Source: Nannocystis pusilla
GTDB lineage: Bacteria; Myxococcota_A; Polyangia; Nannocystales; Nannocystaceae
NCBI RefSeq assembly: GCF_051105105.1
Contig: NZ_CP185339.1
Length of the DNA stretch: 64,000 bases
Strand: one strand, 5' to 3'
Shown: positions 28,767 to 59,280 of the stretch, piece after piece
Position numbering within the stretch: the stretch's first letter is position 1
Layout of the letters: each line of letters opens with the position of its first letter
Notes under the pieces: model-generated
Told to the model about the DNA's origin: nothing
Databases searched by the model: none
Seen by the model: only the letters and a program-made list of their open reading frames with translations
Position numbers and translations under genes: made by a program

Positions 28767-29343
28767 ATGTCTTCGCTTATCGATTGCCCCGAATGCGCCT
28801 GTCTGTTCCGAGCCTCCGACGCGACCTGCCCGTTCTGCGGTCACGTTCAGCGTCACTCGCTCGGCGCGACATGGGCGGCCGTCGCCTTCACCGCCAGTCT
28901 GGGAGTGATGGGCGCCGCTTGCCAGGTCGACCGCGACATCGGCGACGAGACGTTGGCCACCGCCGGCGACACCGTCGACACCGCCGATACGGTCGACACC
29001 TCGATGGTCTCCGAATCGACCAACCCCGGCGGTGACACCGTCGACCCGACGATCACCACCACCTCCAGCGACGGCGCCACCTATGCCGGCCCCGACGAGG
29101 AGTGGACCACCTCGTGGGACACCACCACCACCACCGGTGACGAGAACGTCGACCACGACGAACACGACGCCGGGCACGACGACCACGACGACCAACAGCA
29201 CCAACGACTCGTCCGACGCCAGCACCTACGCCGGCCCCGACGAGGAGTGGAGCACGTCCGACTGGACGACCTCCGACGACTCGTCCGACGCCAGCACCTA
29301 CGCCGGCGCCGACTCGTGGGAGCCCAACGACCAGGGCCGCTGA
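28767..29343 (+). CDS. zinc-ribbon / single-TM / Thr-Asp-rich repeat protein, +1 frameshift near 29148 inside repetitive tract
   Basis: MSSLIDCPECACLF...CPFCG is a zinc ribbon, followed by the TM segment TWAAVAFTASLGVMGAA. The SSD(G/A)(A/S)TYAGPDEEW repeats are split between ORF 28767.. and ORF 29032..29343. Confidence 0.55.
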
Positions 29344-29376
29344 GTCCCGGACCGCTCGCCCGCACCCCGGCCGCGT

Positions 29377-29415
29377 GGCCGCACGAACCTGTCCGTGCGG
29401 CCATGCGGTTTTTCT
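29377..29415 (+). terminator. putative Rho-independent terminator (GGCCGCAC-loop-GTGCGGCC then TTTTTCT)
   Basis: Direct read: an 8-bp perfect stem with a 10-nt loop, then a T-run 6 nt downstream. It lies 35 bp after the stop at 29343. Confidence 0.5.
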
Positions 29416-39750: not shown

Positions 39751-41099
39751 CAGATTCGGTCGTCGATCACCTTGAGCGGCCCGAGCCCGAGCGGCTCGAC
39801 CTGGGCGCGGATCGTCGCGGGATCTCCGACCAGCACCACCTGCATCGCCGCCGGCTCGAACCACCGCGACAGCGCGCGCTCCACGTCGTCGTCGCGCACG
39901 CCCCCGAGCCGGCGCAGCTCGGCCGCCAGGGCGTCGTCGGGCCGCCCCGCCACGTGCAGCCGCGCCACCGCCTCCACGACGGCCCCCAGTCGCTGGTGCT
40001 CCAGCATGCGCTCGACCTGGAACGCGCGGCCGAGCAGGCGCAGCACGTCCCCGGTCAGGAAGCGCCCCTGCGCCGCCTTCAGCTGCGAGAGCAGCGCCCG
40101 CAGCGACGAGCCGGTGGCGGCCGCGTCGACTTGAGTCTCGATCGCCAGCAGGCCGCCGCTTCGGGCCGGCGCGTGGCTCACCGCCACGCTGTACGTGTCG
40201 CCGCGATCGCGCCGCAGCACCTCGCGCAGGGCCGAGCCGACCACGGCCGACGCCAGCTCGAGCGCGAGGTCGTCGGCGTCGCCGGCGATCGCTCGGCCCA
40301 CCACGATGGCCGTCTGGGCCAGGCCCGGTCGCGGCACCACCAGCACCTCGCGGCGCGCCGTGGCGAGCTCGAGCGCCGGCTCGGGCAGCTCGGACGATGC
40401 CGACCACTCGCCCAGCGCGCCCGCGGCCGCCCGCGCGAGCTCGGCCCGCGGCGCCTCACCGACGGCCACCAGCGCCGGCCGGGCCCGCAGCCACTGCTCT
40501 TGCGCCTTTCGGACATGTTCGATCGACCAGCCCACGGCCTGACGCGCCTCTCCCAGCGCGTCGAACCGCGGGGCCAGGCGGCGCTGCAGCAGATGCAGCC
40601 CGCGCCGCGCCGGATCGCCGTCGCGCCGCTGCATGGCCGCCAGCCGCTCGCGCCGCAGCGCCTCGACGTCCTCCGCCGTGAGCTCCGGGCTGCGCAGCCC
40701 CGCCGTCACGATCGTCAGCGCCTCGCGCCACGCCGACGCCTCGACCTCGACCCGCAGCAGCGCCCCGTCCCCGAGCCACACCACCTCGATCGCCCCGCCG
40801 AGCTCGCCGAGCGCGTCTTCGACGGCCCGATCGCGCCCGCGGGCCAGCAGCTCGAGGGTGAAGCTCGCCAGCGGCGGATCGATCTCCGCACCTGTCCGCA
40901 AGACCAGCCCGATCGCCGTCGTCGGCCCCGCCCGCCGCACGTGCAGCAGCGACGGCCCCGGCCGCTCGACCCGCGGCACGACCACCGACGGCGCGTTCGT
41001 GGGCAGCTCGGGCGCCGTGTGTCGCCACGACTGATTGCTCGCGCACGCGCCCAGCAGCCCCGCCAGCAACCATGCCCTTGCGATGCCCGCCCCCCTCAT
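39750..41099 (-). CDS. M16 family peptidase, non-catalytic (beta-like) subunit, lipoprotein signal
   Basis: Insulinase-like fold without HxxEH. The start MRGAGIARAWLLAGLLGAC overlaps the stop of the upstream M16 gene (ATGA). Confidence 0.8.
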   Translation of the reverse strand: MRGAGIARAWLLAGLLGACASNQSWRHTAPELPTNAPSVVVPRVERPGPSLLHVRRAGPTTAIGLVLRTGAEIDPPLASFTLELLARGRDRAVEDALGELGGAIEVVWLGDGALLRVEVEASAWREALTIVTAGLRSPELTAEDVEALRRERLAAMQRRDGDPARRGLHLLQRRLAPRFDALGEARQAVGWSIEHVRKAQEQWLRARPALVAVGEAPRAELARAAAGALGEWSASSELPEPALELATARREVLVVPRPGLAQTAIVVGRAIAGDADDLALELASAVVGSALREVLRRDRGDTYSVAVSHAPARSGGLLAIETQVDAAATGSSLRALLSQLKAAQGRFLTGDVLRLLGRAFQVERMLEHQRLGAVVEAVARLHVAGRPDDALAAELRRLGGVRDDDVERALSRWFEPAAMQVVLVGDPATIRAQVEPLGLGPLKVIDDRI

Positions 41100-42415
41100 G
41101 CCTCCCCCTCCGCCAGCACCGCAACGCGCCCGTCCGGCCGCAGCACCTCGCGCGCGAAGCGGGCCACCTCCGCGGGCGTCACCGCCAGCCACTCCTCGAC
41201 ATCCACCTCCCCGCCGAGCGGCTTGCCGGCCGCCGCCTCTGCCGCCAACACGGCCGCGCGGTCCTGCAGGTCTTGCAGCGCGCTGCGATGCTCCCGCGCG
41301 AGCCGCAGCCTGGCGCGTCGCACGGCAGGCTCCGCCAGCGCCCCCTCGGCCACGCGAGCGAGCACGCGATCGACCTCCGCGACCAGGCGCGCCGGATCGG
41401 CGCCGACGCGGCCGATCACTCGCACGAAGAACACCGACTGATGCGGCAGACTGCGCTGCGTCGCCTGGAATTCGGCCGCCTCCGGCGGACCCTCCGCGCG
41501 CGCCAGCCGGACATACCCGCCGCGCTCCAGCGCCTCGGCGAGCACGTCGGCGGCCGCGTCACCGTCGGCGTCGAGCGCCGGCGACGGCCAGGCCATCAAC
41601 ACCGCCGGCGCCGCCCCCACCGGTCGCTCGGCCGCCACGCGCAGCTCGGTCGTCCGCGTCACCTGCGGCACGGTGCGCGCCGGCGGCCGCGGCTGCCCTG
41701 GCAGGCCGCCGAACTGCCGCTCGATCCACGCTGGCGTCTCCGCCGGCAGATCGCCGACCAGCACCAGCGTCGCGTTGCCCGGATGGACATGTCGGCCGAG
41801 GAACGCGTCGACGTTGGCGATCGTCGCCGCCGCCAGGTCGTCGGCGCTGCCGATGATCGCCCCGTGATAGGGGTGCCCCGCCGGAAACAACGCGGTCAGC
41901 GCCTGGATCTCGAGCCGCGCCAGCGGATCTTGCTCGGCCCGCTGGCGCCGCTCGTTGAGCACGATCCGTCGCACGTTCGCCAGCGTCGGCGCGCCGTGTT
42001 GCCCGCGCACGAAGCCGAGGCGATCGGCCTCGATCCACAGCACGTGCTCGGTCGCCTGCGCCGGCGCCGTATAATAATACTCCGTGGCATAAAACCCGGT
42101 CTCCGCGTTGTTCGCGTGGGCCGACAGCGCGTACTCGAGGCCTTCGCGCCGGCTGCGATCGACGTGCGTCGATCCCTCGTGCGCCACGTGCTCGACCACG
42201 TGCGCCAGCCCGCTGCGACCGTGCGGATCGTCGACGCTGCCGGCGTGGACCCGCAGCCGCACCGCCACCAGCGGCGCCCGTCGATCGTGGCGGAGGATCA
42301 CCTCGAGCCCGTTGTCGAGCCGGTAGTGAGCGTCCTGCCCGGGCGTCACGACCGGGGCGGCGAGCAGCGCGAGCACGGCGGCGAGCATCACCGTCAACGT
42401 ACCGCGCGCCCGCAT
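41096..42415 (-). CDS. M16 family zinc metallopeptidase (insulinase-like), catalytic subunit
   Basis: Has a signal peptide. HVVEH is the inverted zincin HxxEH motif, with a downstream E. Confidence 0.85.
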   Translation of the reverse strand: MRARGTLTVMLAAVLALLAAPVVTPGQDAHYRLDNGLEVILRHDRRAPLVAVRLRVHAGSVDDPHGRSGLAHVVEHVAHEGSTHVDRSRREGLEYALSAHANNAETGFYATEYYYTAPAQATEHVLWIEADRLGFVRGQHGAPTLANVRRIVLNERRQRAEQDPLARLEIQALTALFPAGHPYHGAIIGSADDLAAATIANVDAFLGRHVHPGNATLVLVGDLPAETPAWIERQFGGLPGQPRPPARTVPQVTRTTELRVAAERPVGAAPAVLMAWPSPALDADGDAAADVLAEALERGGYVRLARAEGPPEAAEFQATQRSLPHQSVFFVRVIGRVGADPARLVAEVDRVLARVAEGALAEPAVRRARLRLAREHRSALQDLQDRAAVLAAEAAAGKPLGGEVDVEEWLAVTPAEVARFAREVLRPDGRVAVLAEGEA

Positions 42416-42486
42416 TGCGGCGCCGCGGTCGCCGATCGGACGCGGCGCCCGTCCTCACCCGCGGGCCGCGGCCACGCGCGCGCGCA

Positions 42487-43557
42487 TCACATCGGTCGCG
42501 GGCGGCACACCAGCAGCGTGTGGCTGACCCCGAGGTCGTCGTACTCGCGCTCGACCTCAAGGCCGGCCGCGTGGACGCACGCGAGGAACGTCGTCGAGCG
42601 GTACATCTGACTGGTGCCGTTGGCGACCGCGGTGAAGTACAGCGACGTCATCTGCAGGCAGAAGCTGGCGGCTTCGAAGCGCTGGCGGTCCCAGAACGCC
42701 TCGAGGATGTAGATCTTGCAATTCGGCCCGGCCGCGGCGATGCAGCGGCGCAGGATCGACACGATCTCCGCCTCGGAGAAGCAGTCGAGGAACTGGCTCA
42801 TCCAGATCGCGTCGAAGCCGGTCGGGATCGCCGAGTTCTCGTCGAGCAGGTCGGCCTCGTGGAAGCGCGCCCGCGCCAGCAGCCCCGCCTCGCGCAGGTT
42901 CTGCTCGGCGTTGCGGAGCTGCCCCGGCAGGTCCATCAGCGTCACCTCGACGTTGGGGTCGTGCCGCATGCACGCCGTCGCCCACTTGCCCGTGTTGCCG
43001 CCGATGTCGAGCAGCCGCTTCGGCTTGCCCGCGAACACCAGCGGCAGCGCCGCGCCGAACGCCCCGTCGGAATAGTAGTGGTCGAACTGAAACCACGACT
43101 TTCGCACCGACTCCGGCAATTGCGACAGCCCGGCGTAGACCGTCGGCCACTCGCCGAACACCTTGAGCCCCTCCGGCTTGCCCGACGCCACCGCCGCGTC
43201 GAGCCCCGCGATGCCGTGGTAATTCACGTCGCGCACGAAGTCGAAGTTGGCGCGCGTCATCGGATCGTGCTGCACGTACACGCCCGTCTTCGTGATGCGA
43301 TAGCGGCCGTCGACCTCGGTCACGAGCCCGATCCCCAGCCCCGCCTCGAGCACCACCCGCGTGCCGTAGATCGGCAGCTCCGCCGCCGCCGCGACCTCCT
43401 CGAGGGTGAGGCCCTCGCGGCTGCGCTCGATGGCGAGGAGGATCCCGCGGTCGCGCAGCACGCGGGTGGCCTGGAACACGAACGGGGCGAACGCGATCCA
43501 CTGCGCGCGCTCCAGCGCCTCGAGCGCGGTGATGGGCTTGGGAACGTTTACGGACAT
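42487..43557 (-). CDS. class I SAM-dependent O-methyltransferase (O-MT family 2)
   Basis: LLDIGGNTGKW is SAM-binding motif I. An N-terminal dimerisation/winged-helix region is present. 356 aa. Confidence 0.85.
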   Translation of the reverse strand: MSVNVPKPITALEALERAQWIAFAPFVFQATRVLRDRGILLAIERSREGLTLEEVAAAAELPIYGTRVVLEAGLGIGLVTEVDGRYRITKTGVYVQHDPMTRANFDFVRDVNYHGIAGLDAAVASGKPEGLKVFGEWPTVYAGLSQLPESVRKSWFQFDHYYSDGAFGAALPLVFAGKPKRLLDIGGNTGKWATACMRHDPNVEVTLMDLPGQLRNAEQNLREAGLLARARFHEADLLDENSAIPTGFDAIWMSQFLDCFSEAEIVSILRRCIAAAGPNCKIYILEAFWDRQRFEAASFCLQMTSLYFTAVANGTSQMYRSTTFLACVHAAGLEVEREYDDLGVSHTLLVCRPRPM

Positions 43558-43957
43558 GCCGAGGGCCCCGACTGTCGCTCACCGCGGCCCCGCCGACGAG
43601 TGGCAGATGACCCGGAGCGCAGCGCGCGCTTTCGCCCCGCGCCCGCAGCCGGACCCGCGGCTACGGCCCCCCAGGCGCGCAGCGAGCCGGTCTCTCGCAC
43701 TCGCGGGCGGCCCGGGCGCCCGATCTCCGCCGCACGCGACCCGGGCGATCTCCCTCGCCTCCGACGGCTGTCGAGATTGAAACACCGCGTCGCGTTTCTC
43801 GACACTCGAGTCACGCGGCGACGCCCCCCGCACGACTGCGAGGAACGTCGCGCCGCCCGGTCCGACCTCGCGCGCCTCGTCGGCCCATTCGTCGCGCGAT
43901 CGCGTCAGGCGGGAATCAGTACAGAGGGTCTCCGTCCCATTCGCGCCCGGGCTCGCA

Positions 43958-44401
43958 TCAGCGATCCTCGGGACCCGAGCTCACGTCCACGAGCAGCCTG
44001 GTGCCGGCCGTGCCGTCGGCGTTGATCATCGTCTGGACGTTGCATTGCAGCACCCGTCCCCGCACGCGCTCCTCGATCTCGACGTCCTCCGCTTGCCACG
44101 GCGGCGTCTCGCCCTCGTTGACCCATGGCATGTACACCACGCCGGTCACCCGATCGGTCAACACCGCGTACTTGACCTCCACGCTCAGGAAGCCCCGCGC
44201 CGGCTTCACGTAGGTCACGAACTCGATCTCGTGGCCGCGGGGAATGGCAGCAGTGCCGAGAATGAAGACGCTCACGGGGGCGGCGGCCGAGGACCTGGCA
44301 TGCTGCATGGCGGCGTCGAGGATGCCGCACGGGTCGACCGAAGTCACGTCGAGCCGCTCCTGCGAGTCGCTTCGCAACCTCGGCCTGGCGCGAGCGGACA
44401 C
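43958..44401 (-). CDS. PilZ-domain protein (putative c-di-GMP receptor)
   Basis: RARPRLR is an RxxxR motif at the N-terminus. LLVDVSSG near the C-terminus is (D/N)xSxxG-like. Confidence 0.55.
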   Translation of the reverse strand: MSARARPRLRSDSQERLDVTSVDPCGILDAAMQHARSSAAAPVSVFILGTAAIPRGHEIEFVTYVKPARGFLSVEVKYAVLTDRVTGVVYMPWVNEGETPPWQAEDVEIEERVRGRVLQCNVQTMINADGTAGTRLLVDVSSGPEDR

Positions 44402-44422
44402 CTTCGCGCCCGCTCGCGCCCC

Positions 44423-45643
44423 TCACACCGGCGGCGCGCAATGCCTTGCGATCTGTGCCACCGCCTGCGCGCGCGGCAGCACCTGCTGCTCGTCGCGGAT
44501 CCGCAGCGTCAGCGCCTCGCTGCTCGCCTCGCGCGCCCCGATCACCGCGAGCATCGGCACCCCTTGCGCGTGCGCCTCCGCCACGCGGCGGGCCAGCGTC
44601 TCGCGGCGGTCGTCGAGCTGGGCCCGGACCCCCGCCGCGCACAGCTCCGCCGTTGCCGCCTCTGCCGCCGCTTGCTGGGCCGGGGCCACCGGCGCCACCA
44701 CCACTTGCACGGGCGCCAACCAGGCCGGCAGCGCGCCTGCGTGGTGCTCGAGCACGATCGCCAGGAAGCGCTCGAGGCTGCCGTAGATCGCCCGGTGCAG
44801 CATCGCCGGGCGGCGGCGCTGACCGGCCTCGTCGATGTAATGCAGCCCGAAGCGCTCCGGCAGGTTGAAGTCGAGCTGGATCGTCCCGCACTGCCACGAG
44901 CGGCCGAGGCGGTCGCGCAGCGAGAACTCGAGCTTCGGCCCGTAGAACGCCCCCTCGCCCGGCTGCACCACGTAATCGAGCCCTGCCTCGCGCGCCGCCG
45001 CTGCCAGCTGCGCCTCCGCGCGGTCCCACAGCGCATCGTCGCCGACCCGCTCCGGCGGGCGCGTCGACAGCCCGACCGCGAAGTCTTCGAACCCGAAGCC
45101 TGCGTAGAACCTGCGGGCGCCCTGGCAGAAGCGCACGATCTCGGCCGCGATCTGGTCAGGAGCGCAGAACACGTGGCCGTCGTCCTGCGTGAACTGGCGC
45201 AGGCGGAACAGCCCGTGCAGCGTCCCGCTCGGCTCGTCGCGGTGGCACAGCCCGAACTCGCACAGGCGCAGCGGCAGGTCGCGGTACGACAGCGCGCTGC
45301 GCTGGGCGATCTGGATGTGACCCGGGCAGCTCACCGGCTTTAGCGCCGAGCAGCAGCCCTCGTCGGCGACTGCGAACATTCCCTGGCGAAAATGCTGCCA
45401 GTGGCCGCTCTTCTCCCAGATCGGCTGTCGCAACAATTGCGGCGTGCGGACCTCGCTATAGCCGTCGGCGCTGGCGCGGCGGCGGGCCGCGTCTTCCAGC
45501 GCGCGGGCGAGGACCAGGCCGCGGGGGTGCCAGAACACCATCGCCGGCGCTTCTTCCTGCAGGTGGAACAGGCCGAGGCGAGGGCCGAGGGCGCGGTGGT
45601 CGTGGGCGTCGAGGACGGAATGGGGGCTGATGTCGTGGCTCAT
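44423..45643 (-). CDS. threonyl-tRNA synthetase-like protein comprising only the class II catalytic core and anticodon-binding domain (no N-terminal TGS/editing domains)
   Basis: HRALGPRLGLFHLQEEAPAMVFWHPRG matches ThrRS [29 protein letters not shown]. Motif 2 (FRLRQFTQDDGHVF) and motif 3 (GEGAFYGPKLEF) are present. The anticodon-binding C-terminus is LAPVQVVVAPV. About 406 aa, versus about 640 for canonical ThrRS. Confidence 0.8.
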   Translation of the reverse strand: MSHDISPHSVLDAHDHRALGPRLGLFHLQEEAPAMVFWHPRGLVLARALEDAARRRASADGYSEVRTPQLLRQPIWEKSGHWQHFRQGMFAVADEGCCSALKPVSCPGHIQIAQRSALSYRDLPLRLCEFGLCHRDEPSGTLHGLFRLRQFTQDDGHVFCAPDQIAAEIVRFCQGARRFYAGFGFEDFAVGLSTRPPERVGDDALWDRAEAQLAAAAREAGLDYVVQPGEGAFYGPKLEFSLRDRLGRSWQCGTIQLDFNLPERFGLHYIDEAGQRRRPAMLHRAIYGSLERFLAIVLEHHAGALPAWLAPVQVVVAPVAPAQQAAAEAATAELCAAGVRAQLDDRRETLARRVAEAHAQGVPMLAVIGAREASSEALTLRIRDEQQVLPRAQAVAQIARHCAPPV

Positions 45644-46492
45644 GGCGGCGGTCTCCGGGGGTGAAAGGACCGGCCGGACGGAGCGACGCCACCATGCGCG
45701 CAAAAGCCCCGCCGGCTCGGGCGGGGCTTCGCAGGGCGTGTGTCTCGAGGACTCTCAGCGCACGCGCACGCGACCGACCCCACCCGGAAGGGTGGTGGTA
45801 GTAGTCGCGGTGGTGGCGCGCCGGAGCATCGATTTGGGGATACACGCGGCCTGTGGAGCGGTCAAGCCGAACGCTCGTGCGGAAGCTCGTGGGCACGTGA
45901 ATCCTACACCTGCGATTGCGATCACCTTCTGCTTTCGGTCGCGTGTCGCCGACCATCGCTGCGCCCGCGACGACCTGTCCCTTCAGACATGCTTTAAGTA
46001 TTCGTGCGTCGACCTCGGAGGGCGCTCGCCCCGGACCTGACCCTTCGGCCAGCCGCAGCGCGCCCGCCGAACACCGCCATCCCGCAGCTCGGCCCGCCGC
46101 GCGGGCGAGCTCCGGCCCGCCTCGCCGCCGCGCCGGCCCGGGGCCCGACGCTCGCGGCCGTCGCGTCGCCCGCCTCGCCGCTGCAGCCGCCGCGACATGT
46201 CTCTTCGGCCAGCCTCGATCGCCGCGCCGGCGATCGCCCCTCGCCGACCTCCGCGCCGCGCACCCCGCCGCTGCAGACCGCCCCGGACATGTCCCTTCGG
46301 GCAGCTCGCCCTCCCTCGGGCCGCGGCCGAGCGCGCCGCCCCGGCGGCGCCCGGCGCCCGTGCGGAACACCGTCGCCGGGCGCCGCCAGGCCTGTCTCTT
46401 GGACCAGCCGAGGACGGAGCGCGAGCGATCGCGCGCCCCGCCTGCGTGCAGGCCCGCTTCCGGCCGTGGCCGCGCTGTCGTATCACTCCGCC

Positions 46493-47827
46493 ATGCCCAC
46501 CTCAGGCTCCGCGTCGGCGCCTCGCCGCGCGATCGTGATCGGCGCCGGGATCGCCGGCCTCCTCGCCGCCCGCGTGCTCACGCGTCACTTCGAGCGCGTC
46601 ACTCTCCTCGATCGCGACAGCTTGCCGGCCGGGCCCGAGCCGCGGGCCGGCGCGCCGCAGAGCCACCACGTCCACGTCTTGTTGACGCGCGGCTGGCAGA
46701 TCATGAGCGAGCAGTTCCCCGGCCTCGGCGACGCGCTCGCGGCCGCGGGCGCCCACGAGATCGACTGGCTCGACGACGTCGCCTGGCACACCCCGTTCGG
46801 TCAGGCGCCGCGGGTCCCCTCGCCGCTGCGCTCGCGCGCCTGCACCCGCGGCCTGCTCGAGTACCAGCTGCGCACCGCCCTGGTCGCCGACGAGCGCGTG
46901 CGCATCCACTCCGGCCTCGAGGTCACCGGCCTGCAGGCGGTCGGCGAGCGGATCGTCGGCGTCCAGGTCCACCGCCGCGCCGGCGCGCCCGAGCTCGCGG
47001 CCGACGAGCTGCGCGCCGACCTCGTCGTCGACGCCGGAGGGCGCGCCTCCAAGGCCCCGACCTGGCTGGCCGCGCTCGGCTACCCCGAGCCGCCCGAGAC
47101 CATCATCGACGCCCAGCTCGGCTACGCCACCCGCCTCTACGAGCTGAGCGCCCGGCCCGACTGGAAGGTCCTCTACGCCATGGGCAAGCCGGGCAAGAAC
47201 CCGCGCGGCGGCGTCGTCTACCCGGTCGAGGGCGGGCGTCACATCGTCACCCTCGTCGGCTACGGCGGCGTGTTCCCGCCGGTCGACGAGGCCGGCTTCC
47301 TCGAGTTCGCCGGCGCCCTCGAGACCCCCGCGCTGCGCAACGTCCTGGTCGGCGCCACCCCCTGCTCTGCCATCCACGGCTATCGCAGGACCGAGAACCG
47401 CCTGCGCCACTACGAGCGCCTGCGCCGCTGGCCCGACGGCTTCGTCGTCCTCGGCGACGCCGCCTGCGCGCTCAACCCCGTCTACGGCCAGGGCATGAGC
47501 GTCGCCGCCGTCGCCGCCACGGTCCTGGGCGCGGCCCTGCGCGCGCGGCCGTACGAGCCGCTCGGCCTGCGCTTCCAGAGGCGCCTCGCCGCCGGCAACC
47601 TCGCCGCCTTCATGACCGCCAGCAGCGACGACCTGCGCTGGCCGGGGACCACCGGCAAGGTCTCGCCGGGCCTCAAGCTCATGCACCGCTTCGTCGACCG
47701 AGTCTTCGCCGCCGCCACCCGCTCGCCCGAGCTCTACCTGCGCCTGATCGAGGTCCTGCACCTGATGCGCCCGAGCCGCGACCTGTTCCACCCGAGCGTG
47801 CTGCGCCGGGCCCTGCTGACGCGCTGA
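46493..47827 (+). CDS. FAD-dependent oxidoreductase/monooxygenase
   Basis: RRAIVIGAGIAGLLAARVL is a GxGxxG dinucleotide-binding motif. A second block is DLVVDAGGRAS. It lies in frame inside ORF 46004..47827. Confidence 0.75.
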   Translation: MPTSGSASAPRRAIVIGAGIAGLLAARVLTRHFERVTLLDRDSLPAGPEPRAGAPQSHHVHVLLTRGWQIMSEQFPGLGDALAAAGAHEIDWLDDVAWHTPFGQAPRVPSPLRSRACTRGLLEYQLRTALVADERVRIHSGLEVTGLQAVGERIVGVQVHRRAGAPELAADELRADLVVDAGGRASKAPTWLAALGYPEPPETIIDAQLGYATRLYELSARPDWKVLYAMGKPGKNPRGGVVYPVEGGRHIVTLVGYGGVFPPVDEAGFLEFAGALETPALRNVLVGATPCSAIHGYRRTENRLRHYERLRRWPDGFVVLGDAACALNPVYGQGMSVAAVAATVLGAALRARPYEPLGLRFQRRLAAGNLAAFMTASSDDLRWPGTTGKVSPGLKLMHRFVDRVFAAATRSPELYLRLIEVLHLMRPSRDLFHPSVLRRALLTR

Positions 47828-49094: not shown

Positions 49095-49503
49095 GGCCCG
49101 CGACGACCCGCCCGACAAGGGCCCCGCCCGCGCCGTGCCGGCCGGTGTGGCCGAACCCGCCCGTCATCGCCAAGGAAGGCCGCGACGGAACGCCGTTGCT
49201 CGTCCACCTCCCATCGCGGTTCAATTGAAGAAAAAACCGAGCTGCTCGCCGCGGGCGACACCTCGAGCGGCCGCTCCCCAGCCCAGGCGCAAAACGCTGG
49301 ACCGCTCGCCAGGCGCCCGCCGTGCCTCCGCCGGCGCGGGGCGCCCGTCGCTCCTGCGAAGCGGGACGGGCCCACGCGGCCGGTCACCCCGCCACGCTCA
49401 CCGCAGTCGCGCCGGCAGGTCTTGTGCCCCTCGCGCCATGTCCCGGGGGCCATGCCTTAAAGGGCATGTCTCCCGCGACATGCCCCTGGGGACCTGTCCC
49501 TCG

Positions 49504-53994: not shown

Positions 53995-54195
53995 TCACGC
54001 CTCGCATGATATGATCTCAAGGACATGTCCTATCAGTCAGATCATGAGGACAAAGGCGACGACGCCCGTCCTTCGAGACAGCCCTTCAAGCAGCGCCTGG
54101 CGAGGGTCGCATGCGCCTCGAGACATGCCCCTGAGGCCATATCCCTTCCGACATGCCCTCAAGGACATGCCATCCGGGACATGCCCCTTCATCCG
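53995..54195. repeat. intergenic arrays of GACATGCCC units with about 14-15 bp spacing
   Basis: ctcaaggacatgtcctatcagtcagatcatgaggac. Then gacatgcccctgag/gccatatcccttcc/gacatgccctcaag/gacatgccatccgg/gacatgccccttca. Confidence 0.7.
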
Positions 54196-59016: not shown

Positions 59017-59043
59017 GCTGCCCCTCGGGACACTGTCGCATTC

Positions 59044-59280
59044 GACATGTCCCGAGAGACATTTTTGTCTCCGGGCGGGTCGGCTGTCCGCCGCGTGCCG
59101 GCGACATGTCCCGAGAGACACTCTCGTCTCGCGCGGTCTCCCGGGCCCTGCACGCGATCAACCTGTCCCGAGAGACACTCTCCGCTCCGGCGGTCACGTG
59201 TCCCGGCGCGCGGGCGCGACATGTCCCGAGAGACATCTCTGTCTCCAGGCCGGCCCTGTCGCCGCTCGCCCGCAGGGGGC
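59044..59280. repeat. higher-order tandem repeat, 4 units of about 58 bp, each built as CGACATGTCCCGAGAGACA-N5-GTCTC...
   Basis: Direct read: cgacatgtcccgagagacatttttgtctcc..., cgacatgtcccgagagacactctcgtctcg..., ctgtcccgagagacactctccgctcc..., cgacatgtcccgagagacatctctgtctcc... Confidence 0.85.

What the first reader, a model, noticed from the sequence alone, without database searches (positions are those of the whole stretch)
44423..45643. Stand-alone truncated threonyl-tRNA-synthetase paralog (catalytic core + anticodon domain only)
The protein aligns convincingly to the ThrRS class II catalytic domain, but the start is at most 20 aa upstream of the first catalytic-core motif. The N1/N2 TGS and editing domains are therefore absent. 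Such truncated ThrRS copies are known as antibiotic self-resistance genes (borrelidin, obafluorin) or as editing-deficient paralogs. Here it sits next to a PilZ protein and an O-methyltransferase, with no obvious biosynthetic cluster. The TTG/ATG start region is itself embedded in a GC-rich stretch and is uncertain.
Basis: partly seen in the sequence, partly recalled or inferred. Interest (0 to 1): 0.5.

Follow-up and report, generated by a model that had tools for sequence, protein, structure and literature searches.

The report
Thr-starvation-switched, editing-less threonyl-tRNA synthetase
This Nannocystis gene encodes a working-looking threonyl-tRNA synthetase that lacks its proofreading half and is preceded by a tiny leader gene full of threonine codons, so it is probably switched on only when charged threonine-tRNA runs short.

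Summary
Window 44423-45643 (minus strand) encodes a 406-aa ThrRS made only of the class II core and the anticodon-binding domain. There is no trace of the TGS or editing domains anywhere in the window. It is not a mis-start: it belongs to a 395-420 aa family found across Myxococcota. The window itself is Nannocystis (97% identical to N. pusilla).

Of 63 near-universal ThrRS positions, 62 are kept, including the zinc ligands. The only change is M332V, which is fixed in the whole family.

The self-resistance reading is not supported. There is no biosynthetic cluster and neighbours are conserved only within genera. The ObaO signature (G463S/L489M) is absent, and ObaO itself is full length. The "PilZ" neighbour is an unsupported, strain-specific ORF.

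All 34 family loci examined carry a small ORF with a run of Thr codons; here it reads MLRRATTATTTTTLPGGVGRVRVR*. It is followed by mutually exclusive hairpins and, in this window, a GC hairpin with a U4 tract.

This is a leader-peptide attenuator that is absent from Rfam. The gene is most likely an auxiliary, editing-less ThrRS induced when Thr-tRNAThr is scarce.

A full-length thrS in the same genome is expected but could not be shown.

The parts
44423..45643 (-). Short thrS coding sequence, 406 aa: class II catalytic core plus anticodon-binding domain, with no TGS or editing domains.
   Evidence: Zn ligands C106/H157/H283 correspond to E. coli C334/H385/H511. 62 of 63 near-universal ThrRS positions are kept.
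45653..45656 (-). Shine-Dalgarno GGAG of thrS, 9 nt before the ATG.
   Evidence: Sequence. The GGAGA block is conserved in leader alignment A2.
45641..45696 (-). Helix that buries the thrS SD and AUG. CAUGGUGGCG (45696-45687) pairs with CGCCGCCAUG (45650-45641). The anti-SD CUCCG (45683-45679) pairs with CGGAG (45657-45653).
   Evidence: MFE folds. The anti-SD:SD pairs are kept in 72% of alignment cells. The helix stays closed in both modelled states, so its role is unresolved.
45698..45732 (-). Terminator-like hairpin (segments 3:4). GCGAAGCCCCGCC (45732-45720) pairs with GGCGGGGC (45713-45706), followed by UUUU (45705-45702).
   Evidence: 3:4 duplex -23.8 kcal/mol. An equivalent GC hairpin is present in every family locus. 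The helix is 83% paired in A2, against 42-57% paired for the whole OFF-state structure when partners are slid.
45777..45785 (-). Segment 2 (GGGUGGGGU). It can pair either with the Thr codons (1:2) or with the 5' arm of the terminator (2:3, the antiterminator).
   Evidence: Duplex energies are 1:2 -18.7 and 2:3 -21.9 kcal/mol. RNAalifold picks 2:3 as the consensus. The 2:3 helix is 98.7% paired across 30 leaders.
45755..45829 (-). Leader ORF MLRRATTATTTTTLPGGVGRVRVR*. The Thr run lies at 45814-45791, with 7 Thr in 9 codons. The ORF is in frame with thrS and ends 111 nt before it.
   Evidence: Thr-run ORFs occur in all 34 family loci, with a mean of 6.65 Thr per best 9-codon window against 2.24 in shuffles.
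45837..45865 (-). Promoter-like TTGACC (45865-45860), 17 nt spacer, TATCCC (45842-45837). The leader AUG lies 8 nt after the -10 element, which suggests a leaderless leader transcript.
   Evidence: Nearly invariant in five Nannocystis sequences, with coordinates. This is inference only: the consensus promoter scan found nothing.
45680..45814 (-). Extent of the conserved leader RNA as matched by a covariance model built from 26 family leaders.
   Evidence: 99.1 bits, E 6e-20. This is the only strong hit in the window; the next best scores 19.5 bits.

Best explanation
The gene encodes an auxiliary, catalytically competent threonyl-tRNA synthetase that has no cis-editing domain. Its expression is gated by ribosome-mediated attenuation.

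A promoter drives a short leader ORF with 7 Thr codons in a run of 9. When Thr-tRNAThr is plentiful, the ribosome runs through to the leader stop codon and covers segment 2. The GC hairpin with its U4 tract (segments 3:4) then forms and transcription stops before thrS. The thrS SD and AUG also sit in a helix.

When Thr-tRNAThr is scarce, the ribosome stalls on the Thr run. Scarcity could come from threonine starvation or from an inhibited or insufficient housekeeping ThrRS. Segment 2 is then free to pair with the 5' arm of the terminator (2:3), the terminator cannot form, and the short ThrRS is made.

Shown: the domain content, the conserved active site, the family-wide Thr-run leader, and the mutually exclusive complementarity.

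Inferred: that the enzyme is active, that attenuation actually operates, and that a full-length, editing-proficient thrS exists elsewhere in the genome. That enzyme, or its free editing domain, could clear Ser-tRNAThr in trans.
For: Enzyme:
- TIGR00418 scores 454 bits, above its cut-off.
- The alignment to E. coli 242-612 is gap-free.
- The Zn ligands, motif 2/3 arginines and Thr-binding residues are invariant in all 116 family members (R520 in 115).
- 62 of 63 positions that are at least 90% conserved in full-length ThrRS are kept, including all 8 in the anticodon-binding domain.

Family:
- Hundreds of 395-420 aa homologues occur in Nannocystis, Sorangium, Byssovorax, Kofleriaceae, Myxococcus, Stigmatella, Corallococcus and Archangium.
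- 30 loci from named genomes all lack an N-terminal domain, with a positive control.
- In an NJ tree the family forms an all-short clade.

Leader:
- 34 of 34 loci have an upstream ORF with a Thr run. The mean is 6.65 Thr per best 9-codon window, against 2.24 in dinucleotide shuffles (1.2% of shuffles reach 5), 1.9 on the reverse strand, and 2.8 upstream of canonical betaproteobacterial thrS.
- The upstream ~230 nt are almost invariant among Nannocystis species.
- Every locus has a GC hairpin after the leader stop.
- Duplex energies are balanced: 1:2 -18.7, 2:3 -21.9, 3:4 -23.8 kcal/mol.
- OFF-state helices are 81.6% paired and ON-state helices 94% paired, against 42-63% when the partners are slid.
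- The covariance model gives one hit in the window (99 bits), finds a held-out Polyangia MAG (34 bits), and finds nothing significant before 48 canonical thrS genes.
- Three more distant short-ThrRS lineages (GC 50-70%) also carry Thr-run leaders.

Precedents:
- Leaderless leader peptides lie before thrS, leuS, trpS and alaS in Streptomyces lividans (PMC8079986).
- An attenuation-controlled auxiliary TrpRS and the coordinately controlled thrS/thrZ pair of Bacillus subtilis are cited in PMC4787780 (its refs 57 and 56).
Against: - No expression or enzymology data exist.
- Covariation is weak. The paired segments are nearly invariant, so support comes from conserved complementarity, not compensatory changes. 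Shuffle controls are not exceeded convincingly (28-64 of 500).
- A clear U-tract follows the hairpin in only about half of the lineages. It is present in Nannocystis and absent in Myxococcus, Kofleriaceae and some Sorangium.
- In the window, the helix over the SD and AUG stays closed in both modelled states, so full induction may need something else.
- The leader start codon and the promoter are inferred.
- A full-length thrS in the same genome was not demonstrated.
Confidence: 0.7

Rival explanations
1. Inducible antibiotic-insensitive backup. The short ThrRS resists a ThrRS inhibitor made by soil competitors (for example a borrelidin- or obafluorin-like compound). It is induced through the attenuator when the housekeeping enzyme is poisoned, as described for the auxiliary indolmycin-resistant TrpRS of Streptomyces.
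For: - The attenuator senses low charging whatever its cause.
- M332V is fixed in 116 of 116 family members and in 0 of 54 full-length ThrRS. Met332 lines the threonine/obafluorin pocket and moves when obafluorin binds (PMC9880928).
- A precedent is cited in PMC4787780 (ref 57, Vecchione and Sello 2010).
Against: - Known resistance positions are of the sensitive type: G463, L489, Y462, P424 and G459 are conserved (PMC11252418).
- There is no linked biosynthetic cluster.
- Loss of the editing domain is not known to confer resistance.
Confidence: 0.15
2. Producer self-resistance gene of a BorO/ObaO type, belonging to a natural-product cluster.
For: Nearby genes include a FlxJ-family O-methyltransferase, two M16 peptidases and an FAD-dependent oxidoreductase. 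Myxobacteria are prolific producers of natural products.
Against: - Those neighbours are conserved only within Nannocystis. Sorangium, Myxococcus and Stigmatella have unrelated neighbours.
- The 64 kb window holds no PKS or NRPS.
- ObaO is full length and carries G463S/L489M, which this protein lacks (PMC11252418).
- Phylum-wide vertical distribution does not fit a cluster-borne immunity gene.
Confidence: 0.03
3. It is the only ThrRS of the organism. The attenuator then acts as a plain homeostatic feedback loop, as with E. coli pheST or S. lividans thrS, and the cell lives without ThrRS editing.
For: I could not show a full-length thrS in any myxobacterial genome with the tools available. No myxobacterial full-length ThrRS appeared among the 150 best cluster representatives.
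Against: - Absence from a top-150 list is weak evidence, because that list stops at 307 bits.
- From general knowledge, not tested here: free-living bacteria with large genomes carry a full-length thrS, and editing-less ThrRS as the sole enzyme is known only from reduced genomes and organelles. Consistent with that, a 410-aa ThrRS of the symbiont Ca. Providencia siddallii turned up.
- The gene lies among accessory genes next to a variable insertion hot-spot.
Confidence: 0.05
4. A non-translational role: a ThrRS-like enzyme that supplies Thr-tRNA or threonyl-adenylate to another pathway, such as a tRNA-dependent peptide or cell-envelope modification.
For: Truncated aaRS paralogues with new functions are known (review PMC9437257).
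Against: - The anticodon-binding domain and all catalytic residues are intact.
- No partner gene is conserved.
- Regulation by Thr-codon stalling fits translation supply.
Confidence: 0.04

Closest known systems
E. coli delta-N ThrRS (residues 242-642, PDB 1EVK/1EVL), an engineered truncation
   Same: Identical domain content and a gap-free alignment over 371 residues at about 48% identity. Catalytic and zinc residues are the same.
   Different: This one is a natural, phylum-wide gene with its own regulation. It carries M332V and V376L.
Yeast mitochondrial ThrRS MST1 (PDB 3UGQ) and crenarchaeal ThrRS-cat (PDB 3A31)
   Same: Natural ThrRS enzymes without a cis-editing domain.
   Different: They are much more distant in sequence, at 252 and 178 bits against 400-430 bits for bacterial ThrRS. 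They are the sole or obligate synthetic enzymes in their systems and are not attenuator-controlled.
Streptomyces coelicolor trpRS1, an auxiliary TrpRS under ribosome-mediated attenuation (Vecchione and Sello 2010, cited in PMC4787780)
   Same: A second aaRS gene switched on by a leader peptide carrying codons for its own amino acid.
   Different: The amino acid and the phylum differ. TrpRS1 is full length and antibiotic resistant. Here the enzyme is truncated and resistance is unproven.
Streptomyces lividans thrL-thrS and the other leaderless leader peptides before aaRS genes (PMC8079986)
   Same: A leader ORF before thrS, a probably leaderless transcript, and a hairpin that often lacks a U-tract, all in a high-GC bacterium.
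   Different: The S. lividans leader has only 2 Thr and controls the ordinary thrS. The myxobacterial leaders have 4-8 Thr and precede an editing-less enzyme.
Bacillus subtilis thrZ (T-box controlled) and Anabaena T2 (induced under zinc limitation) (PMC4787780, PMC9437257)
   Same: Stress-induced second ThrRS genes. T2 is impaired in editing and relies on trans-editing by the first enzyme.
   Different: thrZ and T2 keep the N-terminal domains. Their control is by T-box or by zinc status, not by a leader peptide. No T-box or other Rfam family matches here.
E. coli thr operon leader (Rfam Thr_leader) and pheM-pheST
   Same: Classical architecture of 1:2, 2:3 and 3:4 pairings with a run of regulatory codons. 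pheM shows that aaRS genes can be controlled this way.
   Different: No Rfam match at E<=1. The sequence family and the downstream gene are different.
ObaO (obafluorin immunity ThrRS)
   Same: A second ThrRS copy.
   Different: ObaO is full length, sits inside the oba cluster, and is resistant through G463S (PMC11252418, bioRxiv 10.1101/704981). None of these applies here.

Membership tests
Threonine--tRNA ligase (class II, TIGR00418) | Class II core (tRNA-synt_2b) plus HGTP anticodon-binding domain, with a whole-protein score above the curated cut-off | tested here: met
   Pfam E 7.5e-45 and 7.4e-16. TIGR00418 scores 454 bits against a cut-off of 383.65.
Threonine--tRNA ligase (class II, TIGR00418) | Zinc ligands C334/H385/H511 and the Thr/ATP-binding residues R363, D383, Q381, Y462, K465, Q484 and R520 | tested here: met
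   All are present in the window protein and invariant in all 116 family members (R520 in 115).
Threonine--tRNA ligase (class II, TIGR00418) | N-terminal TGS (N1) and editing (N2, tRNA_SAD) domains of the canonical bacterial enzyme | tested here: not met
   No Pfam hit, and profile positions 1-169 are unmatched. tblastn finds nothing in the window or in 30 family loci, with 48 positive controls.
Threonine--tRNA ligase (class II, TIGR00418) | Aminoacylates tRNAThr with threonine | not testable with these tools
   Needs enzymology. It is inferred from 62 of 63 conserved positions.
BorO/ObaO-type self-resistance ThrRS | Encoded inside or next to the biosynthetic cluster of a ThrRS inhibitor | tested here: not met
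   The window has no PKS, NRPS or oba-like genes. Neighbours are not conserved between genera.
BorO/ObaO-type self-resistance ThrRS | Resistance substitutions G463S (key) and L489M | tested here: not met
   The window has G235 (= G463) and L261 (= L489). The family has G in 114 of 116 and L in 105 of 116 (PMC11252418).
BorO/ObaO-type self-resistance ThrRS | A second copy beside a housekeeping thrS | not testable with these tools
   Only 64 kb of the genome is available. The attempts failed.
Leader-peptide (ribosome-mediated) attenuator | A short upstream ORF with a run of codons for the cognate amino acid | tested here: met
   7 Thr in 9 codons at 45814-45791. 34 of 34 loci carry such an ORF, and the controls are far lower.
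Leader-peptide (ribosome-mediated) attenuator | An intrinsic terminator (GC hairpin plus U-tract) between the leader and the gene | tested here: met
   In the window the hairpin spans 45727-45706 and is followed by UUUU. Across the family the hairpin is always present, but a U-tract occurs in only about half of the lineages.
Leader-peptide (ribosome-mediated) attenuator | Mutually exclusive antiterminator pairing (2:3) that is supported by evolution | tested here: inconclusive
   Complementarity is kept in 98.7% of cells and was found de novo by RNAalifold. There are almost no compensatory changes, and the shuffle control is not clearly exceeded.
Leader-peptide (ribosome-mediated) attenuator | Read-through increases when the cognate aminoacyl-tRNA is scarce | not testable with these tools
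   Needs Term-seq or reporter assays.
Rfam Thr_leader, T-box, or any curated cis-regulatory RNA | A match to the covariance model | tested here: not met
   No Rfam 15 family matches at E<=1 in 43500-46600.

The most novel reading that the evidence does not exclude
The system is a programmed fidelity switch. When threonine runs out, the cell deliberately induces a ThrRS that cannot hydrolyse Ser-tRNAThr, so serine is inserted at Thr codons and translation can continue. This would be adaptive, regulated mistranslation. The family-wide M332V change in the amino-acid pocket may further relax Thr/Ser selection. The attenuator senses exactly the condition (uncharged tRNAThr) under which the Ser/Thr ratio is highest.
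Probability: 0.12. Interest if true: 0.85.

Novelty: new variant of a known kind. Interest (0 to 1): 0.58.

Why it matters
ThrRS editing is a textbook example of translational quality control. Here a whole bacterial phylum keeps a natural editing-less ThrRS, and it is wired to a sensor of tRNAThr charging.

That makes three questions directly testable in culturable organisms such as Myxococcus xanthus, Sorangium and Nannocystis:
- Do cells trade accuracy for charging capacity under starvation?
- Does the housekeeping enzyme proofread for the backup enzyme in trans?
- Is the backup enzyme a hidden antibiotic-tolerance determinant?

The work also adds an undescribed, easily recognisable cis-regulatory RNA family, a Thr leader in high-GC deltaproteobacteria-like lineages. 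It also corrects genome annotation, where these genes are simply named 'threonine--tRNA ligase'.

Tried and rejected
1. Looking for a full-length myxobacterial thrS, to prove 'paralog'. Every route failed.
   - The 150 best 50%-cluster representatives carry no myxobacterial full-length entry.
   - A GC-rich candidate, P0307, turned out to be Acidobacteriota. P0241 turned out to be Chloroflexota.
   - The single genome-contig scan returned the short family plus betaproteobacterial thrS only.
   - The ThrRS sheet of the duplicated-aaRS table in PMC4787780 is cut in the stored copy.
   - The M. xanthus developmental transcriptome tables (PMC6791715) are cut and could not be queried for 'threonine--tRNA ligase'.

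2. Degraded N-terminal domains in the 850-bp upstream gap: none found.

3. Rfam families, sigma-70 promoters or terminators by consensus scan: none found. The terminator was found by eye and by folding.

4. PilZ identity of the downstream ORF: rejected.

5. A conserved operon or partner gene: rejected.

6. tRNA genes in the window: none.

7. An SD-release cascade (4:5 pairing). RNAalifold suggested it, but constrained folding of the window sequence does not support it, so it is left open.

8. Literature on short ThrRS or Thr leaders in myxobacteria: nothing in the held library.

9. 'FlxJ' in the literature: no relevant paper.
Full report
**What is there**

On the minus strand an ORF runs from ATG 45643 to the stop at 44423 (406 aa). 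Pfam finds only the class II core (tRNA-synt_2b, E 7.5e-45) and the HGTP anticodon-binding domain (E 7.4e-16). NCBIfam TIGR00418 (thrS) is passed, at 454 bits against a cut-off of 383.65, but only profile positions 170-548 of 565 are matched.

Against solved structures, the protein aligns without a single gap to E. coli ThrRS residues 242-612. That region is exactly the delta-N construct that has been crystallised (1EVK/1EVL). The best hit is a 641-aa bacterial ThrRS (6vu9, 430 bits). Yeast mitochondrial MST1 (252 bits) and crenarchaeal ThrRS-cat (178 bits) are much more distant.

**The N-terminal domains are really absent**

tblastn with E. coli residues 1-241 finds nothing in the window; the best hit has E=1.2 and none lies in the 850-bp gap upstream. 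The same query detects the N-terminal domain immediately upstream of the catalytic part in 48 of 50 full-length thrS loci fetched from other genomes. The other two are cut by contig ends. It detects none in 30 loci of the short family.

The start codon is ATG 45643. GGAG lies 9 nt upstream, and the 94-97% identical Nannocystis proteins start at the same Met. The in-frame stop at 45757-45755 belongs to an upstream leader ORF. The alternative TTG at 45703 lies inside the T-run of a terminator.

**Organism and family**

The genome scan places the window in Nannocystis. The protein is 97% identical to N. pusilla Na p29 and 94% identical to N. exedens DSM 71 and N. punicea FL3.

Hundreds of proteins of 395-420 aa with the same two domains occur in Sorangium, Byssovorax, Polyangiaceae, Kofleriaceae, Myxococcus, Citreicoccus, Stigmatella, Corallococcus, Pyxidicoccus, Archangium and Melittangium. 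Their sources name them simply 'threonine--tRNA ligase'. A few MAGs labelled Holophagaceae, Steroidobacteraceae or Pseudomonadota, and a 2.9-kb contig of Desertibaculum, also carry the gene. This could be transfer or mis-binning; I did not resolve it.

In an NJ tree of the 150 best 50%-identity cluster representatives, the family sits in a clade made only of short forms. Other short forms scattered elsewhere look like independent truncations, for example in the symbiont Ca. Providencia siddallii.

**Is the enzyme intact?**

In an alignment of 116 family members with 54 full-length representatives, these residues are invariant (R520 in 115 of the 116 family members): the zinc ligands C334/H385/H511, and R363, E365, D383, Q381, Y462, K465, Q484 and R520.

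Of 63 positions that are at least 90% conserved in full-length ThrRS (55 in the catalytic domain, 8 in the anticodon-binding domain), the window protein keeps 62. The single exception is M332V. It is V in 116 of 116 short proteins and M in 54 of 54 full-length ones. V376L is a second family signature.

Met332 lines the threonine pocket and moves when obafluorin binds (PMC9880928). The meaning of the change is unknown. I conclude that the protein is very probably an active ThrRS for tRNAThr that cannot edit Ser-tRNAThr in cis. The mischarging phenotype of delta-N ThrRS is established knowledge, not tested here.

**The self-resistance idea**

ObaO is a full-length ThrRS: its catalytic construct is residues 241-637. 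It lies in the oba cluster, and its resistance is due to G463S, with L489M also substituted (PMC11252418; bioRxiv 10.1101/704981). The window protein has G463 and L489, as well as Y462, P424 and G459.

The 64-kb window encodes Ser/Thr kinases, an ECF sigma factor, PSD/PSCyt proteins, a radical SAM enzyme, a hybrid histidine kinase, an OmpA protein, hydrolases, a VWA protein and an MMPL protein. There is no PKS or NRPS.

The FlxJ-family O-methyltransferase, the two M16 peptidases and the FAD-dependent oxidoreductase beside the gene are syntenic only within Nannocystis. Sorangium, Stigmatella and Myxococcus have unrelated neighbours, and no neighbour family is shared across genera.

The 'PilZ' ORF (43958-44401) has no PilZ match even at E<=10. 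It lies in a segment that is missing or replaced in every other Nannocystis locus.

**The leader**

Aligning the upstream regions of five Nannocystis sequences showed about 230 nt that are almost invariant, more conserved than the flanks. The region contains, in order:
- TTGACC, a 17 nt spacer, and TATCCC (45865-45837).
- Eight nt later, the ORF ATG CTC CGG CGC GCC ACC ACC GCG ACT ACT ACC ACC ACC CTT CCG GGT GGG GTC GGT CGC GTG CGC GTG CGC TGA (45829-45755). This reads MLRRATTATTTTTLPGGVGRVRVR*.
- The hairpin GCCCCGCC-CGAGCC-GGCGGGGC followed by UUUU (45727-45702).
- A helix that buries the thrS SD and AUG.

Every one of the 34 family loci examined has such an ORF. Examples are TATTTTTTRTGGLGLVCMR in Sorangium, ITTTTTGTTTRFGGRGTVRVTW in M. 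xanthus and LTTTTTTTATGG in Kofleriaceae. The best 9-codon window holds on average 6.65 Thr (minimum 4). The controls are far lower: 2.24 in dinucleotide shuffles (1.2% reach 5), 1.9 on the opposite strand, and 2.8 upstream of 23 canonical betaproteobacterial thrS genes. No other amino acid is enriched like this.

Three more distant short-ThrRS lineages, with GC of 50-70%, also have Thr leaders: MASPCATTTCTTPHPGPRTAA*, MGAFSSTTTTTTMF* and MVSDSTTTTAL*.

**RNA switch**

In the window, the G-rich segment 2 (GGGUGGGGU, 45785-45777) can pair in two ways. It can pair with the last Thr codons (1:2, -18.7 kcal/mol) or with the 5' arm of the terminator (2:3, -21.9). The terminator itself (3:4) is -23.8.

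On an alignment of 30 leaders, RNAalifold chose the 2:3 pairing by itself. Counting pairs, the OFF-state helices (1:2, 3:4, anti-SD:SD) are 81.6% paired and the ON-state helices 94% paired. When the partners are slid, the figures fall to 42-63%.

Compensatory changes are few, because each segment has two partners and is nearly invariant. The support is therefore conserved complementarity, not covariation. The conserved 'GG.G.V' tail of the leader peptides is explained by this RNA constraint.

A covariance model built from 26 leaders gives a single strong hit in the window (45680-45814, 99 bits; the next best is 19.5). It finds a held-out Polyangia MAG (34 bits). It finds nothing significant upstream of the canonical thrS controls. 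Rfam has no match.

There are caveats:
- A U-tract follows the hairpin in Nannocystis, Byssovorax, several Sorangium and some MAGs, but not in Myxococcus or Kofleriaceae. The same is reported for Streptomyces leader peptides (PMC8079986).
- The SD/AUG helix of the window stays closed in both modelled states.
- The promoter and a leaderless leader mRNA are inferences.

**How it most likely works**

With enough Thr-tRNAThr, the ribosome finishes the leader, segment 2 is covered, the terminator forms and thrS stays off. With too little, the ribosome stalls on the Thr run, 2:3 forms, transcription reads through and the short ThrRS is made.

This makes it an auxiliary enzyme for times when charging of tRNAThr fails, whether through starvation or through an inhibited or insufficient housekeeping enzyme. 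Several systems work in an analogous way:
- the attenuation-controlled auxiliary TrpRS of Streptomyces and the thrS/thrZ pair of Bacillus (references 57 and 56 in PMC4787780);
- Anabaena T2, an editing-impaired backup that is proofread in trans by the first enzyme (PMC4787780);
- the leader peptides before aaRS genes in S. lividans (PMC8079986).

The new points are the combination with a natural loss of the whole editing half, its conservation across a phylum, and the distinct leader family.

**What remains open**

I could not show the expected full-length thrS in the same genome (see Tried and rejected). If it were absent, the finding would be more surprising, not less. It is also unknown why an enzyme without editing should be the one induced at low threonine, and what M332V does. 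The boldest reading is regulated Ser-for-Thr mistranslation.

Noticed in passing
window, e.g. 1688, 1797, 3128, 17734, 17920, 25819, 26015, 29523, 35442, 38099, 45972, 46034, 46194, 46286, 47892, 49433-49500, 54020-54187, 59042-59227: A dispersed intergenic repeat with a palindromic core GGGACATGTCCC (often GACATGTCCCTTCGG). There are 26 matches with up to 2 mismatches, against 2.7 expected. Four copies lie in the gap between the thrS leader and the divergent FAD-oxidoreductase gene. It could be a REP/MITE-like element or an operator of a global regulator.
   Followed up: partly
window 43826-44417 (includes ORF 43958-44401, minus strand): The segment right after the thrS stop is a variable hot-spot. 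The 147-aa ORF here has high GC3 but no Pfam family and no PilZ match. It has no counterpart in N. pusilla, N. exedens, N. punicea or the metagenomic relative, which carry 0.24-2.2 kb of unrelated sequence at this spot.
   Followed up: yes
window protein residue 104 (codon at about 45334-45332); E. coli numbering M332: M332V is the only departure from 63 near-universal ThrRS positions. It is fixed in all 116 family members and occurs in none of 54 full-length representatives. V376L accompanies it. Met332 lines the threonine/obafluorin pocket. The functional meaning is unknown.
   Followed up: partly
window 39750-43557 (minus) and 46494-47827 (plus): A FlxJ-family O-methyltransferase (NF053543, 494 bits, below its 560 cut-off), two M16 peptidase-like proteins and a divergent FAD-dependent oxidoreductase or halogenase-like gene are syntenic in all Nannocystis loci. 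They could be a small tailoring or processing module unrelated to thrS.
   Followed up: no
L099 6001-7242 (Myxococcaceae MAG, P0188); L100 (P0179); L102 (P0147): Separate, more distant lineages of short ThrRS (40-48% identity to the window protein; genomes with GC of 50-70%) also have Thr-run leader ORFs. The pairing of 'editing-less ThrRS plus Thr leader' is therefore older and wider than the main myxobacterial family.
   Followed up: partly
L035, L038, L041, L048, L050, L060: Family members complete with Thr leaders occur in MAGs or contigs labelled Pseudomonadota, Steroidobacteraceae, Holophagaceae (UBA706) and on a 2.9-kb contig of the alphaproteobacterium Desertibaculum subflavum. This is either horizontal transfer or contamination/mis-binning.
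   Followed up: no
L008 3001-4137 (IMG/VR contig IMGVR_UViG_3300034072_000758, 516805 bp): A contig of 516805 bp filed as viral encodes a ThrRS relative (49% identity over query residues 4-381) with no Thr leader. It is either a megaphage-encoded aaRS or a misclassified cellular contig.
   Followed up: no
window 28767-29633 (plus), next to the radical SAM gene 29623-30951 (minus): An ORF for a Cys-rich N-terminus followed by a long Thr/Asp/Ser-rich low-complexity region (TTSWDTTTT and similar). It was picked up only because of its Thr runs. It is coding low complexity, not a leader.
   Followed up: no
window 45641-45696 (minus): A long helix pairs CAUGGUGGCG with CGCCGCCAUG and CUCCG with CGGAG, burying both the SD and the start codon of thrS. 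The anti-SD block GCUCCGUCC is conserved across genera. RNAalifold suggests it could alternatively pair with the 3' arm of the terminator, but folding of the window sequence does not open it.
   Followed up: partly
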